Below, in pieces: positions 73-8,080 of a DNA stretch of 64,000 bases. The translations under genes and the position numbers were made by a program. The stretch lies in the sequence record NC_018855.1; one strand, given 5' to 3'. Positions within the stretch are counted from its first letter, which is position 1, and every line of letters starts with the position of its first letter. The DNA is from Escherichia phage HX01. The notes below the pieces were generated by a model. It did not search any database. It was not told the DNA's origin and worked only from the letters and a program-made list of their open reading frames with translations.

Positions 73-149
<77 letters not shown>

Positions 150-3149: not shown

Positions 3150-3746
3150 ATGCGAAACCAAAATAATGATATTGACTCAATGTTCGAAGAGTTCCGAAAT
3201 AAGGTAAATCCACCTACGTCTTTAGTTGATTCATTACGATATGTTGCAACTGGACGTAAATGGTATTGGTCGTCTTCTTATGAGACAACTGAATATGCAA
3301 ATAACCGAAAATCTTTATTAGCCCCAGGTATTATGATTCATGATATCGGAGCTATTGCTAAACTAGTTGCAGACCATGATATTAGATTCACTGATTTCGT
3401 TGCTCCTACGTGGTCTGTTTGTTGTTTAAACACTGAATGGGACTATATCAGTGAACGTTCAGATGATTACATAGGCTTTAGAGACAAGCTTTTAAGGTCT
3501 AACATGTTTTATATTGATACAGAAGTTCTGGTCAATAATAAAAAATACTACTTCACTTTAATCGTCGATTCTGAAACTATGTATGAAGGCAAGCCTTTGC
3601 TTAAAAGAGTTGATGCTTTAAGTGCTATTGATGCGCTTTATGAAACCATGGTTGTTAGTCCTAATTTCACTAACAATTTAATCCTTGAGCAATTTATTAT
3701 GGAATGTAGAGAATATGTCAAAGCCAACCCTATACATGCCAAGTAA
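3150..3746 (+). CDS. hypothetical protein containing the EQFIMECR motif
   Basis: ORF track 3129..3746; ATG 3150 after SD AAAGGAG. Confidence 0.6.
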   Translation: MRNQNNDIDSMFEEFRNKVNPPTSLVDSLRYVATGRKWYWSSSYETTEYANNRKSLLAPGIMIHDIGAIAKLVADHDIRFTDFVAPTWSVCCLNTEWDYISERSDDYIGFRDKLLRSNMFYIDTEVLVNNKKYYFTLIVDSETMYEGKPLLKRVDALSAIDALYETMVVSPNFTNNLILEQFIMECREYVKANPIHAK

Positions 3747-4110
3747 GCCCTGGGCGTATGAATACAAGCGTAAATTAATCCCAAATGAAGTACTATTTGG
3801 CCCTATTTTAGCTTTAGCATTTTTAATCTTTATGATTATAGGAGCTGTTTTAGATTCCAATAAAGTTATATCGTCTGATGCAGCGTTTTCATTAATGTTC
3901 GTCGCACCACTTATTGTACCGTTTTTATTAATGCCTATTAATTGGGCAGGATATTGGCACCAAGGCCGTCATCACAGAGCCCGATTAAGAGAATGGAAAG
4001 TTCAGTGCGCAAAAGCCCAAGCTCAGTATGATGAAGCTGTTAAAAAGTATGAATATGAAGAAGCTATGGAATTCGTTAAGGAAATAAGATGCAAAAACCT
4101 CAACTCTTAA
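3715..4110 (+). CDS. small membrane protein, C-terminal EFVKEIRCKN tail
   Basis: ORF track 3685..4110; first ATG 3715; hydrophobic segments. Confidence 0.5.
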   Translation: MSKPTLYMPSKPWAYEYKRKLIPNEVLFGPILALAFLIFMIIGAVLDSNKVISSDAAFSLMFVAPLIVPFLLMPINWAGYWHQGRHHRARLREWKVQCAKAQAQYDEAVKKYEYEEAMEFVKEIRCKNLNS

Positions 4111-4451
4111 CCGTATGGCCTTCTCTTGGTGAGAACATTCTAATTTTTATTATGAGTATTGGCATGGGATTTGCCTTTGGATTAGTTGGATTTCTTATTG
4201 ACGGCGTTGTGTTAGGATTTATAGGGAACACTGGTGGATTCACAGACCAATGGCAGGACTTACGGTATACCCAAGCCTTTGCATCCATCGCATCATTTTG
4301 TACTGTAGTCTATTTTTACTACGATTTTATAAACCATAACAAGAAAAATAAAAAGGTTTACGCTTCTCAAATGATTAGTTATAATGAACTCCTAGCTAGA
4401 CGTGAAAATGAAACAATAGAAAACTTTATTAAGGAATGTAGAAATGAGTAA
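4089..4451 (+). CDS. small membrane protein, C-terminal ENFIKECRNE tail
   Basis: 120 aa, SD AAGGA, hydrophobic N-terminal half. Confidence 0.6.
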   Translation: MQKPQLLTVWPSLGENILIFIMSIGMGFAFGLVGFLIDGVVLGFIGNTGGFTDQWQDLRYTQAFASIASFCTVVYFYYDFINHNKKNKKVYASQMISYNELLARRENETIENFIKECRNE

Positions 4452-4749
4452 GATTATTGAAATTAAAGTACCAGAGTTTAATGATGCCAAATCCGCTTCA
4501 GATGCAATTTATAAACTTCTGAATCAAGCTGAACGTATCGAAGAAGAAGCAACAAAGATCGCAGACCAATATGCCGTATCATTTTCTGTAGGTGATTATG
4601 GTAGCGGTCGTACTTATTATCCTAAGGGTGAAATCGTATCCCAGTGGATGAAAGATGAAATTGAAAATAATGGTGGCGATGTTAAGCGTGAAGGTAATGG
4701 TTACGTTATTACTGAAGGTGCTTGGGTTTCGTCTTCTGCGTTGTGCTAA
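4444..4749 (+). CDS. hypothetical protein, paralog family ending W-V-SSSALC
   Basis: 101 aa; first of three tandem paralogs. Confidence 0.6.
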   Translation: MSKIIEIKVPEFNDAKSASDAIYKLLNQAERIEEEATKIADQYAVSFSVGDYGSGRTYYPKGEIVSQWMKDEIENNGGDVKREGNGYVITEGAWVSSSALC

Positions 4750-4758
4750 GGAATCATT

Positions 4759-5031
4759 ATGTCTAAAGAACAAACCGAACTGGCTGAAGCTGTAGCAAAA
4801 ATCTATGCAGCTATTGAGGCTGCCAAAGAAATTGCTGATAAACAAAACACAACATTCGACTTGTATCCAGCTTATGGTATGGGTGGAACATATCATTCAC
4901 CCGGACAGCTTAAAGCCGATCTTGAACGTTGTACAAAAAACGGCTATGCTGAATGGGCTGACGTTTACCAATACGACTACAACCTGAGCCTCGAAACTGG
5001 TGGTTGGATCGCATCTTCTCACACTTGCTAA
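4759..5031 (+). CDS. hypothetical protein, paralog family ending W-I-ASSHTC
   Basis: 90 aa. Confidence 0.6.
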   Translation: MSKEQTELAEAVAKIYAAIEAAKEIADKQNTTFDLYPAYGMGGTYHSPGQLKADLERCTKNGYAEWADVYQYDYNLSLETGGWIASSHTC

Positions 5032-5040
5032 GGAAACCAT

Positions 5041-5238
5041 ATGTCTCGTGAATTAGATTGTGCTGTACGTACGGCAGTAGCTGCCCTGGAAAACCTGTTC
5101 CAAATTGCAACAGAAGAACGCGAAGAAGTTACATTGTGGATTGAAGATAACGCAGGTCTGAATCTCCAGAACGCGATCTCATTATCCCACAATAGTATCA
5201 CTGTTCAAGGCTGGGTATCATCTAGTTATTCTTGCTAA
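5041..5238 (+). CDS. hypothetical protein, paralog family ending W-V-SSSYSC
   Basis: 65 aa. Confidence 0.55.
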   Translation: MSRELDCAVRTAVAALENLFQIATEEREEVTLWIEDNAGLNLQNAISLSHNSITVQGWVSSSYSC

Positions 5239-5242
5239 AACA

Positions 5243-5272
5243 GTTTACAACAAGATAGGGCTATGTTATAGT
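5243..5272 (+). promoter_or_regulatory. early promoter with inverted repeat around -10
   Basis: GTTTAC 5243-5248; GATAGGGCTA / TAGTCCTATC inverted repeat. Confidence 0.5.
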
Positions 5273-5300
5273 AGTCCTATCAAATTAAATGGAGTCCACA

Positions 5301-5540
5301 ATGATTTATTACGAAAGTATTGGAACCGAAGTGGTTGCTAAAACCATTACTCGTGAAAAGTTTGCAAAGATATTCGATATGCGTTATAAAAAATCTGAAC
5401 ACAAAGGCATCCGATTCGAAGATGCACACTGTACAATTTGCCCTTATAACGAAGACATAAATGGTACAATCGTTCCATTGGTAGAGGCTTCACACGATGA
5501 CCTCTGGGATGAATATGATATCGCATGTCGTGAAATTTAA
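5301..5540 (+). CDS. hypothetical protein
   Basis: ORF track 5289..5540; ATG 5301 after SD GGAG. Confidence 0.5.
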   Translation: MIYYESIGTEVVAKTITREKFAKIFDMRYKKSEHKGIRFEDAHCTICPYNEDINGTIVPLVEASHDDLWDEYDIACREI

Positions 5541-5568
5541 GTTAATGAATTAATCCGAGGAAAATATT

Positions 5569-6525
5569 ATGATGTTAGTTATTGGTTCTCGTGCACTTCA
5601 CTATCACGGTCTTATTGATTCTAACGCTATCAAAAATAGTGACTGGGACTTTATTGCAGACCAAGGTTCTTGGAATGCATTCAAAAATCAAATGATGGGT
5701 GTATATGTTCACCAAGATAACCCTGATGTCCAAGTTTTCAAATGCTTCCATAATGGACGCGAAACTCATTTTGAAGCATATATTGTTCCGGCAATCACTA
5801 ATGTCCGTGAATTAGTAGGTGAACTCACTCCTGAAGATTTCACGTCTTCTTATGACCTTTTAAAATACGCCAAGAAAAATTTGACTAAAGACCGTTTGAA
5901 CGGGTTTTACTGGGCAACTCCTGAGATATGTCTTGCAATTAAGATGTCTCATCGTTTCAAGAAAAATAATCCATTCTTTTTAAAGACTATGAACCATATT
6001 CAGTATCTTCGTGGTAAAGGTGTTACACTGAACGATGAACTTACTGAAATTATGCTAAAACGCCAGAAAGAAACCTTGAACTATGCTCACCCAGTTCTTG
6101 ACACTTCTAAAAGTGCGTTCTTTAAAGATGACATCTATACATATGACCATGATACTATTCATGAAGCCATTGCACTAACAGACCGTCCAGCGTATACATT
6201 TTATATGAAAGACGGTTCTGAAGTCATGACATCACGCGAGAAGTTCGAATCATTACCAGAAATGGTCAAATTGGCCGGTGTATACGAAGAATCATGTGTA
6301 CTAGCATTAGAACGTTCTCAAATTCCTAATGACTTTAAAATTAACCCTGAAGCCAGTTTTATGATGGCATTAGAAAAAGTATGTACAAGCATCACCTCCG
6401 GTTGGTTCCGTGAGTATGCCTGGGAAAACTACAGCAAAGTAGTAAGTATGTACCAAAGCTTAGGACATGATGATTACGTCAAACGTTTCAAACAAAATTT
6501 CCATATGGTAAAACCTTTCAAATAA
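5569..6525 (+). CDS. predicted nucleotidyltransferase-fold protein
   Basis: 318 aa; N-terminal IGSRALHYHGLIDSNAIKNSDWDF resembles the GS...DxD motif of Pol-beta-type NTases; unverified. Confidence 0.6.
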   Translation: MMLVIGSRALHYHGLIDSNAIKNSDWDFIADQGSWNAFKNQMMGVYVHQDNPDVQVFKCFHNGRETHFEAYIVPAITNVRELVGELTPEDFTSSYDLLKYAKKNLTKDRLNGFYWATPEICLAIKMSHRFKKNNPFFLKTMNHIQYLRGKGVTLNDELTEIMLKRQKETLNYAHPVLDTSKSAFFKDDIYTYDHDTIHEAIALTDRPAYTFYMKDGSEVMTSREKFESLPEMVKLAGVYEESCVLALERSQIPNDFKINPEASFMMALEKVCTSITSGWFREYAWENYSKVVSMYQSLGHDDYVKRFKQNFHMVKPFK

Positions 6526-6595: not shown

Positions 6596-6901
6596 ATGAA
6601 ATTAACAGAAACCAACCGAATTGGTCTTTTAACAATATTTGCATCACCTTTTTACGCAGCCCTTTCTGTTGCAGTATTACAAAAGGCTTACGATATGGAT
6701 GGTGTTCCTGGTTTTGTATTCTTATCACCGTTTTTATTATTCGTCGGAGCATTGTTATTATATGCCACGACTAGTTTCGACCATAATGTCTGGGTCAATT
6801 ATAAATGTAAATTGTCTGAAGAAGAACACGCAGAAGCTCGTAAAAAAGCTATTGAATCTACCAATCTAGAAAATTTCATTAAAGAATGTCGAGGAAAATA
6901 A
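6596..6901 (+). CDS. small membrane protein, C-terminal ENFIKECRGK tail
   Basis: 101 aa, SD GAGGAG. Confidence 0.6.
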   Translation: MKLTETNRIGLLTIFASPFYAALSVAVLQKAYDMDGVPGFVFLSPFLLFVGALLLYATTSFDHNVWVNYKCKLSEEEHAEARKKAIESTNLENFIKECRGK

Positions 6902-6902
6902 T

Positions 6903-7589
6903 ATGAATAGTTCTAAAGTGTTTAATAGTCAAGCTCGTGCAGTAGGTGGTTTCGCTGGTAAAATTTCTAACGATAAAATCAAAAACGAACCTATGTTCTT
7001 CAACAGCTCGTTAGCCTTCGCTTTTGATAATGGTGGCCCTATTACTCGCAGCTTCATCATGAACCTACCAGATGATTGGAACACCGACCAGGTTGTATTT
7101 GATTCACGAGTCCACATGCTGATGCCTGGTTGGTATCCTGCTATTCCTGGATATCACCATGATGACGTACCACGCCCTGATATTCCAGTTGGTCAACACT
7201 TTATTACTGCAGGACAACCTGATTATGACAATCCTCGCTATTTGTCTGAACATATTCTTGGTCTTGTTAACGCTGATGTGTGTCCTACTCATTTTGCAAC
7301 AGGAACTGCAGAGTTCAGTCAGATTCCTGATGGCGAACTTATCTATCGTCAGTGGCACAAAGAAGTCCTCGAAAAAATTGAAAAAGGTGAACTAGAGAAA
7401 TGGGAAGCTCCAGATCGTACTCTTCTTCAGTTTGATTGGCAAACATGGCACACTGGTTCTCGTGCAATTAGTAACGGATGGCGTTGGTTCGGACGTGTAT
7501 CTCGTAATACAGACCGAGTTAAAAAGATTACCAATGAAATTCGTGTCAATGCTCAAGTTTATCTGGAATTCCCTATGGAAGGCTGGTAA
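6903..7589 (+). CDS. hypothetical protein
   Basis: 228-aa ORF, translationally coupled. Confidence 0.6.
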   Translation: MNSSKVFNSQARAVGGFAGKISNDKIKNEPMFFNSSLAFAFDNGGPITRSFIMNLPDDWNTDQVVFDSRVHMLMPGWYPAIPGYHHDDVPRPDIPVGQHFITAGQPDYDNPRYLSEHILGLVNADVCPTHFATGTAEFSQIPDGELIYRQWHKEVLEKIEKGELEKWEAPDRTLLQFDWQTWHTGSRAISNGWRWFGRVSRNTDRVKKITNEIRVNAQVYLEFPMEGW

Positions 7590-8080
7590 TGATTAACAAA
7601 ACATATTGGTCTAATATAGACGATAGCAATGAAGGTATTTCATACTATTCAGTAGATTGGACAGGATGTCCATCCTACTTAGTGAAAAATATTTGCCAAG
7701 AATTTAAAATCGACCAGCCAGCAGGTATTATCGTGAACAGATACATTAATGGATATCAACCTATCGATGAAGTAATACGAACAACTCAAGCTGAGCTTGA
7801 AAGGTTTTTCAATAAGTGCCAATGGATAACAGGATGGATTATATTTGTACCATCTATATGGTTTTTCAGTACTAAGGTGAGTTCTTTCGGTTTTGTTGAT
7901 ATTATTGCTATCTTATTAGCATCTAGTATCATAAGTGTTGTTGGTGGCATCATTGGCGGCGGTACCGCCGCCATCATTATTAATCTTGTTAAAAGTAGTT
8001 TACAAGAACATAAAGACAAGATAAAAGCCAAGAATAATGAAGTTGAACGTTTTATTACCGAATGCAGGAATTTGAGATGA
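7589..8080 (+). CDS. membrane protein with glycine-zipper TM segment, C-terminal ERFITECRNLR
   Basis: 163 aa; VVGGIIGGGTAAIII. Confidence 0.6.
   Translation: MINKTYWSNIDDSNEGISYYSVDWTGCPSYLVKNICQEFKIDQPAGIIVNRYINGYQPIDEVIRTTQAELERFFNKCQWITGWIIFVPSIWFFSTKVSSFGFVDIIAILLASSIISVVGGIIGGGTAAIIINLVKSSLQEHKDKIKAKNNEVERFITECRNLR

What the first reader, a model, noticed from the sequence alone, without database searches (positions are those of the whole stretch)
5569..6525. Nucleotidyltransferase-fold protein in the hyperplastic region
IGSRALHYHGLIDSNAIKNSDWDF fits the GS-x(n)-DxD pattern of Pol-beta-superfamily nucleotidyltransferases. Phage NTases in accessory regions are candidates for nucleotide-signal synthesis or target nucleotidylation.
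Basis: inference. Interest (0 to 1): 0.5.

Follow-up and report, generated by a model that had tools for sequence, protein, structure and literature searches.

The report
Phage nucleotidyltransferase with tail-tagged partner proteins
The gene does encode a nucleotidyltransferase-fold enzyme, and in almost every phage that has it, it sits just downstream of small acidic proteins that all end in the same Trp-x-Ser-Ser-x-x-Cys tail, which points to an undescribed virus-specific enzyme-plus-partner module.

Summary

The protein is Pfam DUF7277 (nucleotidyltransferase core) plus DUF7275. DUF7275 is a very conserved helical domain with no significant match to any solved fold. The family is virus-specific: 732 of 50,697 phage records carry it, and only 5 phage-like MAG contigs among 185,579 species genomes.

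New finding: 1-6 small acidic ORFs ending in W-x-S-S-x-x-C-stop lie directly upstream on the same strand. They make up 194 of 1516 upstream frames versus 6 of 16,520 elsewhere, and occur in 15 of 17 clades. A reverse search from an independent motif recovers the enzyme. Three copies lie at 4444-5238 in the window.

Best reading (about 0.4): the enzyme nucleotidylates the tail serines. Rivals are a MenAT-like toxin-antitoxin pair and an RNA-end nucleotidyltransferase. No biochemistry exists and I found no publication.

The parts
5569..6525 (+). NTase-like gene (318 aa), orthologue of RB69ORF134c; Pfam DUF7277 + DUF7275; phrog_2141
5572..5871 (+). N-terminal domain (aa 2-101, DUF7277), the minimal Pol-beta nucleotidyltransferase core. 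G6-S7 at 5584-5589, D25-x-D27 at 5641-5649, E69 at 5773-5775
5926..6483 (+). C-terminal helical domain (aa 120-305, DUF7275). Family-wide invariants: K125, H128, K139, H194-D195, H198, E240-E241, E248-R249. Invariants specific to the subfamily with partner proteins: R165, H174-P175, C272, S277, F280-R281
   Evidence: Pfam E 5e-79; no significant PDB fold match; residue census
4444..4749 (+). tail protein 1 (101 aa, pI 4.6), ends ...GAWVSSSALC-stop; phrog_899; mid motif DYGSGRTYYP
4759..5031 (+). tail protein 2 (90 aa, pI 4.7), ends ...GGWIASSHTC-stop; phrog_899; mid motif AYGMGGTY; equals RB69ORF137c
5041..5238 (+). tail protein 3 (65 aa, pI 4.3), ends ...QGWVSSSYSC-stop; phrog_4882; equals RB69ORF136c
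5289..5540 (+). intervening small ORF (83 aa, phrog_3723). It lies between the tail genes and the enzyme in the enterobacterial T4-like clades only, is not part of the universal module, and has unknown function
5244..5272 (+). sigma-70-like promoter match (TTTACA-17-TATAGT with TG) ahead of ORF 5289 and the enzyme gene; a consensus match only

Best explanation
The gene encodes an active, virus-specific nucleotidyltransferase built from two parts. The first is a minimal Pol-beta-type catalytic core (DUF7277). The second is a large, highly conserved helical domain (DUF7275) that completes the active-site cleft. The enzyme works together with the small acidic proteins encoded just upstream, three of them in this window. 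Their only invariant feature is the extreme C-terminal tail W-x-S-S-x-x-C-COOH.

Most likely the tail is the enzyme's acceptor substrate. Subfamily-specific loops of DUF7275 (R165, H174-P175, C272, S277, F280-R281) would dock the tail, with the terminal Cys and Trp acting as anchors. The two-metal centre (D25, D27, E69) would then transfer an NMP from an NTP to the hydroxyl of one of the invariant serines, giving a nucleotidylated small protein that acts in the phage-host conflict.

Shown here: the fold, the intact catalytic residues, the two-gene module, and selection on the tail at the protein level. Inferred: that the two components interact physically, that the tail is a substrate rather than an inhibitor, which residue is modified, and which nucleotide is used.
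For: NTase fold and catalytic residues.

Module, forward direction: in 89 loci (identity to the window protein 38-98%, from T4-like phages, 95-150 kb phages and 340-390 kb jumbo phages), frames ending in W.{0,2}SS.{1,3}C-stop make up 194 of 1516 frames in the 3.5 kb upstream on the same strand, versus 6 of 16,520 elsewhere (Fisher p 8e-204). They are present in 77 of 89 loci and 15 of 17 clades. Most loci without them are cut short upstream.

Module, reverse direction: a DNA pattern for the independent mid motif YGMGGTYYP found 13 IMG/VR loci. All 11 complete ORFs end in the tail. Ten have the enzyme directly downstream, and the other three are cut at the locus edge. All 5 hits in genome collections also carry tail ORFs.

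Adjacency: in many lineages the last tail gene abuts or overlaps the enzyme gene.

No other neighbour is conserved across lineages. T4 lacks both the enzyme and the tail genes in the 50 kb examined, which covers the syntenic e.3/e.2 junction.

Protein-level selection: the two invariant serines use all six Ser codons.

A substrate-like pattern: only the tail is invariant (W, S(-5) and C(-1) 100%; S(-4) 90%) while the rest of the protein diverges, and there are 1-6 paralogues per enzyme.

Enzyme residues track the tails: R165, H174, P175, C272, S277, F280 and R281 are conserved in 95-96 of 96 tail-associated enzymes. They are replaced in 5-6 of 6 tail-less homologues that are only slightly more distant (26-34% versus at least 36% identity), while the family-wide set K125/H128/K139/H194/D195/H198/E240/E241/E248/R249 is kept in all. 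H174 and C272-R281 lie in the two least confident, presumably mobile, stretches of the model.

Precedent (established knowledge): Pol-beta NTases nucleotidylate protein hydroxyls, for example GlnE, GlnD, DrrA and the MntA antitoxin on HepT.
Against: There is no direct evidence of interaction: no complex model could be run and no biochemistry exists. The closest structural relatives, the MenT toxins, act on tRNA 3' ends rather than proteins, and they are regulated by small proteins encoded upstream. That fits the rival reading in which the small proteins are inhibitors. Tail-less homologues keep the whole core active site, so the ancestral acceptor is probably not a tail protein. In the window, an extra ORF and a promoter-like site separate the tail genes from the enzyme gene. 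The residue correlation rests on only six tail-less homologues that are also the most divergent, so phylogeny is a confounder.
Confidence: 0.4

Rival explanations
1. Toxin-antitoxin-like pair, analogous to MenA/MenT. The enzyme would be a MenT-like NTase that blocks translation by extending or otherwise modifying RNA (tRNA) 3' ends. The upstream small proteins would be its inhibitors or regulators, with the conserved tail plugging the active-site cleft. The phage would use the pair for host shut-off or as an addiction or decoy module.
Against: MenA1 inhibits through its N-terminal helix and its C-terminus is dispensable. Here only the extreme C-terminus is conserved. Up to six divergent paralogues per enzyme is unusual for an antitoxin. 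The enzyme has 95-100% invariant subfamily-specific residues that track the tails, which is more expected for catalysis on a partner than for being inhibited by it. It is not a DUF1814 member by sequence, and the family is confined to lytic-type viral genomes.
Confidence: 0.2
2. RiPP-like maturation. The enzyme would activate a tail serine by nucleotidylation, which is then eliminated to dehydroalanine. The terminal Cys would add to it and form a small thioether (lanthionine or AviCys-type) ring at S-x-x-C-COOH. The small proteins would be precursors with a helical leader-like N-terminus.
For: S(-4)-x-x-C(-1) at a free C-terminus is the spacing of lanthionine and AviCys rings (established knowledge of epidermin-type lanthipeptides). 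There are multiple divergent precursors per enzyme. The enzyme carries one invariant Cys and several His in the tail-associated subfamily. Nif11 leader is the Pfam family hit by the most tail proteins.
Against: The Nif11 hits are only 3 of 68 members, best E 0.0033, all below the Pfam cut-off, and NCBIfam leader models do not hit. No protease, transporter, cyclase or decarboxylase is conserved nearby. No NTase-driven dehydration is known. The proteins are 60-160 aa and acidic, which is larger than typical RiPP precursors.
Confidence: 0.1
3. RNA-end or tRNA repair/modification NTase that works independently of the small proteins. The linkage with the tail genes would then reflect co-inheritance or a shared but non-physical role.
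For: MenT-type fold. RNA-repair genes (Rnl1, PNKP, Rnl2, metallophosphoesterases) lie within 1-6 kb in some lineages. Tail-less homologues keep the core active site.
Against: The RNA-repair neighbours are confined to a few clades. tRNA genes are absent within 10 kb in 33 of 45 diverse loci. The tail linkage survives across lineages in which every other neighbour changes, and it also holds in the reverse search. The protein is not RlaP and has no CCA-enzyme Pfam hit.
Confidence: 0.12
4. Small-molecule nucleotidyltransferase in the manner of ANT(2'')/Lnu. It would inactivate or build a metabolite, or make a nucleotide signal.
Confidence: 0.08

Closest known systems
MenT / AbiEii (DUF1814) nucleotidyltransferase toxins with MenA antitoxins
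   Different: There is no DUF1814 Pfam hit and no counterpart of the motif IV Asp at the MenT spacing. The helical domain is about 200 aa, has its own invariant H/D/E set and no PDB match. The partners carry a conserved C-terminal tail and come in 1-6 copies. The family is virus-specific.
Aminoglycoside/lincosamide nucleotidyltransferases ANT(2'')-Ia and LnuA
   Different: No sequence relationship is detectable. The C-terminal domain is different, and those enzymes have no partner proteins.
Protein-nucleotidylating Pol-beta NTases (GlnD, GlnE, DrrA, MntA of HEPN-MNT)
   Same: The proposed chemistry is the same: NMP transfer to a protein side-chain hydroxyl. MntA is also encoded next to its protein target. 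GlnD also joins an NTase core to a His/Asp-rich helical domain.
   Different: hhalign of the family profile against E. coli GlnD gives no signal. Known targets are Tyr, not a Ser-Ser-x-x-Cys tail. This comparison is an analogy drawn from established knowledge, not a tested relationship.
RlaP (PF10127), the RNA-ligase-associated Pol-beta NTase of T4-like and jumbo phages (T4 NrdC.11)
   Same: A phage-encoded Pol-beta NTase found in accessory regions.
   Different: It is a different family: T4 NrdC.11 hits RlaP, the window protein does not, and hhalign probability is 0.1%. T4 has RlaP, but the 50 kb of T4 examined (the e.2/e.3 region) holds no homologue of this family.

Membership tests
Pol-beta-superfamily nucleotidyltransferase fold | hG[GS] turn between the first strand and a helix | tested here: met
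   I5-G6-S7 after strand 2-5; G6 and S7 invariant in 41 homologues and in 94 of 96 relatives
Pol-beta-superfamily nucleotidyltransferase fold | [DE]h[DE] on the next strand plus a third carboxylate on a later strand | tested here: met
   D25-W-D27 on strand 26-31; E69 on strand 64-73; D25 93/96, D27 95/96, position 69 E 87/96 or D 7/96
Pol-beta-superfamily nucleotidyltransferase fold | Three-dimensional similarity to solved NTases | tested here: met
Pol-beta-superfamily nucleotidyltransferase fold | Nucleotidyl transfer activity | not testable with these tools
   requires biochemistry
Pfam DUF7277 + DUF7275 (phrog_2141) | Score above the Pfam gathering cut-off for both domains | tested here: met
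   97.0 and 265.1 bits against a cut-off of 27; phrog_2141 E 2e-150
DUF1814 / AbiEii / MenT toxins | Sequence membership (Pfam DUF1814 model) | tested here: not met
   no hit even at E <= 10; no PDB sequence hit
DUF1814 / AbiEii / MenT toxins | Motif III Lys in the helical lobe and motif IV Asp about 15-22 residues later (MenT1 K137/D152, MenT3 K189/D211; PMC7450476, PMC10435456) | tested here: inconclusive
   K125 is invariant at a comparable distance from the DxD motif, but no conserved Asp lies 15-22 residues after it; the invariants there are K139 and T140. No residue-level superposition was available.
DUF1814 / AbiEii / MenT toxins | Toxicity, tRNA 3'-end extension, and a cognate antitoxin | not testable with these tools
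   needs expression and tRNA assays
RlaP RNA-repair NTase (PF10127) | Pfam RlaP match | tested here: not met
CD-NTase / SMODS nucleotide-signal synthases | Match to CD-NTase models or fold | tested here: not met
HD / PDE metal-dependent phosphohydrolase domain (for DUF7275) | H...HD...D metal ligands on the five-helix HD core | tested here: inconclusive
Nif11-type RiPP leader (for the tail proteins) | Match to the Nif11 model above cut-off | tested here: not met
   3 of 68 members, best E 0.0033, below cut-off; no NCBIfam leader model hit

The most novel reading that the evidence does not exclude
A previously undescribed, virus-only post-translational modification system. A MenT-like nucleotidyltransferase fused to a new helical domain would recognise and chemically modify the invariant W-x-S-S-x-x-C-COOH tail of a diversifying family of small acidic phage proteins. 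The modification could be serine nucleotidylation, or nucleotidylation-driven ring formation with the terminal cysteine. In that case one constant enzyme would arm a variable set of effectors for the phage-host conflict.
Probability: 0.4. Interest if true: 0.8.

Novelty: new variant of a known kind. Interest (0 to 1): 0.62.

Why it matters
About 1.4% of sequenced phage genomes carry this gene (732 of 50,697). They include many therapeutic-candidate T4-like coliphages, Klebsiella, Acinetobacter, Aeromonas, Pseudomonas and Vibrio phages and jumbo phages, with structural relatives in giant viruses. The gene is annotated 'hypothetical' almost everywhere.

This work shows that it is a catalytically intact nucleotidyltransferase locked to a family of tail-tagged small proteins. 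That turns two domains of unknown function (DUF7275 and DUF7277) and three PHROGs of unknown function into one testable two-component system. The prediction is clear and cheap to test: a mass shift on a defined C-terminal peptide that depends on D25/D27.

If the tail is a substrate, this would be a new protein modification made by phages and a new acceptor class for MenT-like enzymes. If the tail is an inhibitor, it would be the first MenAT-like pair carried by lytic phages. Either result bears on how the accessory ('hyperplastic') regions of T4-like genomes work.

Tried and rejected
1. tRNA-gene linkage. The window has tRNA-Arg at 73-149 and Gordonia ClubL has a tRNA cluster 1.2 kb away. Rejected: 33 of 45 diverse loci have no tRNA within 10 kb, and the positives are mostly one syntenic clade.

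2. Other conserved neighbours. The 228-aa ORF 6903-7589 and the 101-aa ORF 6596-6901 show no detectable similarity to the same-sized ORFs that flank the enzyme gene in L005 and L002. All-against-all clustering of neighbours found only the tail family in more than 4 clades.

3. RlaP identity: rejected.

4. GlnD-like NTase+HD architecture: hhalign against E. coli GlnD gave no signal. This used a single sequence, so sensitivity was low.

6. Defence-system models (PADLOC): none.

7. PDB sequence searches with the single sequence and with profiles found only noise (PsaB, designed helices).

8. Nif11 leader idea: too weak.

9. Domain fusions as functional hints. The top 150 of 1588 family clusters are all about 300-aa single-architecture proteins. 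One DUF1190-DUF7275 protein from a 3-kb contig is probably a chimera. All 34 tail-family hits are 62-112 aa with no domains.

10. C243 as a tail-linked residue: dropped, because it is Tyr in 15 of 96 tail-associated enzymes.

11. Technical dead ends. The afdb50 library was not installed. The alignment of tail proteins was too variable for the search for related loci. A degenerate DNA pattern for the tail had too few fixed bases.

12. Literature: no paper mentions DUF7275, DUF7277, RB69ORF134c or this module.

Full report
**What the window is.** The 2 kb around the finding is 96-98% identical to RB69 and other Mosigvirus (T4-like) coliphages. The finding's ORF is the orthologue of RB69ORF134c, annotated 'hypothetical protein'. 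It lies between the e.3 and e.2 homologues. In T4 itself e.3 and e.2 abut. The block RB69ORF139c-132c, which contains the finding, is therefore an indel in the accessory region near e, nudE and the tRNA genes.

**The observation.** ORF 5569-6525 (+) is real: ATG start, Shine-Dalgarno sequence, 318 aa. It begins MMLVIGSRALHYHGLIDSNAIKNSDWDF.
- As a bare pattern, G[GS]-x(9-25)-D-x-[DE] is not informative. It occurs 28 times in 35,658 residues of open frames in this window.
- In an alignment of 41 homologues (46-75% identical), G6, S7, D25, D27 and E69 are invariant.
- They stay conserved in 87-95 of 96 relatives down to 36% identity.

**The fold.** An AlphaFold2 model built on that alignment is confident (pLDDT 92.8, pTM 0.87).
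- So residues 1-105 are a minimal Pol-beta nucleotidyltransferase core. The motif residues sit where the fold requires them: strand, G-S, helix, strand with DxD, and a later strand with E69. Residues about 110-318 form a helical domain without a known counterpart.

**What family it is.**
- Pfam already holds both halves as DUF7277 (aa 2-101, E 1e-27) and DUF7275 (aa 120-305, E 5e-79).
- PHROGs has it as phrog_2141, function unknown.
- There is no hit to DUF1814/AbiEii, RlaP, CCA-enzyme, CD-NTase or any defence model, and no PDB sequence relative.
- T4's own 'nucleotidyltransferase' NrdC.11 is RlaP and is unrelated.
- The family is large and uniform: more than 2200 proteins at 90% clustering and 1588 clusters at 50% identity, almost all about 300 aa with no fusions.
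- It is viral. 732 of 50,697 phage records carry it, from enterobacterial T4-like phages to Acinetobacter, Aeromonas, Pseudomonas, Vibrio, Gordonia and Streptomyces phages.
- Structural relatives occur in giant viruses (Sylvanvirus, Satyrvirus).
- Only five hits appear in one genome each of 185,579 bacterial and archaeal species. All are on MAG contigs; four are 73-383 kb and one is a 2.3-kb fragment. They look like phage.
- A few GenBank records already call it 'putative nucleotidyltransferase'. I found no publication.

**The unexpected part: a conserved partner.** I clustered all ORFs within 5 kb of the gene in 89 loci (this window, RB69, 7 metagenomic loci and 80 IMG/VR loci).
- Exactly one neighbour family spans many lineages: small ORFs upstream on the same strand. 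Their sequences diverge strongly, but they all end in the same way, for example ...GAWVSSSALC...GGWIASSHTC and ...QGWVSSSYSC in the window (4444-4749, 4759-5031, 5041-5238), and ...GGWVASSQTC...NWFPSSLGC and ...GWNASSQSC elsewhere.
- Counting every stop-to-stop frame of at least 40 codons that ends in W.{0,2}SS.{1,3}C gives 194 of 1516 frames in the 3.5 kb upstream on the same strand, against 6 of 16,520 elsewhere in the same loci (Fisher p 8e-204).
- 77 of 89 loci and 15 of 17 clades at 60% identity have at least one. With a slightly looser pattern the figures are 79 of 89 and 16 of 17.
- Of the loci without one, four are cut less than 720 nt upstream of the gene, and four have a copy 7 kb away on the other strand.
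- In the whole 64-kb window only three frames end in the motif, and they are the three just upstream of the gene.

*Reverse test.* A DNA pattern for the separate mid-protein motif YGMGGTYYP, which says nothing about the tail or the enzyme, found 13 IMG/VR loci. All 11 complete ORFs end in the tail. Ten have the enzyme immediately downstream. The other three are cut at the locus edge, and two of those come from contigs known to carry the enzyme. The five MAG loci have tail ORFs too. The 50 kb of T4 examined, which covers the syntenic e.3/e.2 junction, has neither enzyme nor tail ORFs.

*Adjacency.* In many non-T4-like lineages the last tail gene abuts or overlaps the enzyme gene. In the enterobacterial T4-like clades an extra small ORF (5289-5540 here) lies between them.

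*Nature of the tail proteins.*
- In 117 unique sequences the Trp, the Ser at -5 and the terminal Cys are 100% conserved, and the Ser at -4 is 90% conserved.
- The consensus is an N-terminal amphipathic helix (..AE.IADE.G..F), then YGMGGTYYP, a variable acidic linker, and G-x-W-x-S-S-x-x-C-stop.
- They are acidic (median pI 4.4) and short (median 91 aa).
- The two invariant serines are encoded by all six Ser codons, both TCN and AGY, in 120 different 27-mers. The conservation therefore acts on the protein and not on a DNA or RNA element.
- All three window copies have AAGGAA 6-8 nt before the ATG.
- PHROGs files them as phrog_899 and phrog_4882, function unknown. Pfam, NCBIfam and the PDB have nothing. 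A database-wide profile search finds only 34 small, domain-less phage proteins.

**The enzyme's residues track the tails.** The six most divergent homologues are DSS3_VP1, Streptomyces Ankus, Pseudoalteromonas HM1, Vibrio phi-Grn1 and 1.081.O, and Gordonia ClubL (26-34% identity). None has a tail ORF upstream.
- They keep K125, H128, K139, H194, D195, H198, E240, E241, E248 and R249. These are evidently the core of the DUF7275 site.
- They have lost R165, H174, P175, C272, S277, F280 and R281 (each kept in 0-2 of 6). The same residues are kept in 95-96 of 96 tail-associated enzymes, including ones only 36-41% identical to the window protein.
- H174 and the C272-R281 segment lie in the two least confident stretches of an otherwise very confident model (residues 171-190 at pLDDT 74-77; 271-280 at 82). 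That is what one expects of mobile, partner-binding loops.
- Caveat: there are only six tail-less cases and they are also the most distant, so this is suggestive and not proof.

**How it most likely works.**
- *Shown:* an intact two-metal NTase centre; a large conserved domain packed against it; and a near-obligatory, oriented, often operonic linkage with proteins whose only invariant part is an eight-residue C-terminal tail.
- *Inferred:* the tail enters the cleft, and the enzyme transfers an NMP to one of the two invariant serines. This is the chemistry of all the closest structural relatives (NMP to a hydroxyl: RNA 3'-OH in MenT, sugar hydroxyls in ANT and Lnu). It is also the chemistry of the protein-nucleotidylating Pol-beta enzymes GlnD, GlnE, DrrA and MntA (established knowledge).
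- The substrate reading is favoured by three points: one constant enzyme serves 1-6 diverging proteins that share only the tag; the enzyme itself carries invariant residues that appear and disappear with the tag; and the family is confined to lytic-type viruses. I give it about 0.4.
- The main rival (about 0.2) is a MenAT-like arrangement in which the small proteins inhibit an RNA-directed NTase. The gene order and the top structural hit fit this. However, MenA1 works through its N-terminal helix with a dispensable C-terminus (PMC10435456), which is the opposite of the conservation pattern seen here.
- A RiPP-like variant, with serine activation and thioether closure onto the terminal Cys (S-x-x-C-COOH is the lanthionine/AviCys spacing), is attractive but rests on weak hints (about 0.1).
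- An RNA-end enzyme unconnected with the tails (about 0.12) and a small-molecule or signal-making enzyme (about 0.08) explain the fold but not the partners.

**Verdict.** The family is already catalogued, but only as two DUFs. The fold assignment alone would be a routine 'new member of a known kind'. The conserved enzyme plus tail-tagged-protein module has not been described, as far as the searchable literature shows. It is statistically very strong and gives a direct, inexpensive experiment. I rate it a new variant of a known kind, interest 0.62.

Noticed in passing
window 3685-4110, 4089-4451, 6596-6901, 7589-8080 (+): Four small predicted membrane proteins around the module (the e.4, e.3 and e.2 homologues and RB69ORF133c) end in a shared C-terminal motif: ...EFVKEIRCKNLNS, ...ENFIKECRNE, ...ENFIKECRGK, ...ERFITECRNLR. 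This is a second family of paralogues in this region that is defined by a conserved C-terminus.
   Followed up: no
window 4444-4749 vs L001 (RB69) 5444-5750: The first tail gene is intact in the window (101 aa, ending in the motif). In the RB69 reference it is split into ORF139c (71 aa, ending ...SQWYEK) and ORF138c (33 aa). That is either a frameshift or a sequencing error in the reference.
   Followed up: partly
window 6903-7589 (+): A 228-aa ORF (RB69ORF132c, phrog_1843) with no Pfam hit lies two genes downstream of the enzyme. It contains a GYHHDD stretch. It co-occurs with the enzyme in only 2 clades (25 loci), so it is not part of the universal module.
   Followed up: partly
L005 9015-9830; L111 5417-6178; L112 5247-5969: A Sir2-family gene lies 1.4-2.1 kb downstream of the enzyme homologue in three separate lineages: a 148-kb gut phage and two Schizotequatrovirus phages. 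Metallophosphoesterase and RNA-ligase genes recur nearby in others (L002, L005, L108). This may hint at the ancestral, tail-independent role of the family.
   Followed up: no
L080 and L085 (IMG/VR loci): These phages carry five tandem tail-protein genes upstream of the enzyme and a sixth about 1.1 kb after the enzyme's start, just downstream of the gene (...WQPSAGTC / ...WQPSAQSC). This is the largest expansion seen.
   Followed up: no
L049, L050, L052, L076: These four related loci have no tail ORF upstream. They do have one (...GTYAWCSSSMEC) about 7 kb downstream on the opposite strand, so the linkage can be loosened by rearrangement.
   Followed up: no
public records seen: Likely misannotations: the enzyme is called 'prohead assembly scaffold protein' in Klebsiella phage vB_KpnM-VAC36, and tail-protein genes are called 'tail completion protein' or 'CAZy families GH13 protein' in several phage records.
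   Followed up: no
window 73-149 (+): tRNA-Arg (UCU), the only tRNA in the 64-kb window. RB69 has tRNA-Met and tRNA-Arg at the syntenic place.
   Followed up: yes
window 5236-5244 and the other tail-gene ends: The tail genes end TGC-TAA-GGAA, so the stop codon of one gene forms part of the Shine-Dalgarno sequence (TAAGGA) of the next. This is compatible with translational coupling along the tandem array.
   Followed up: no
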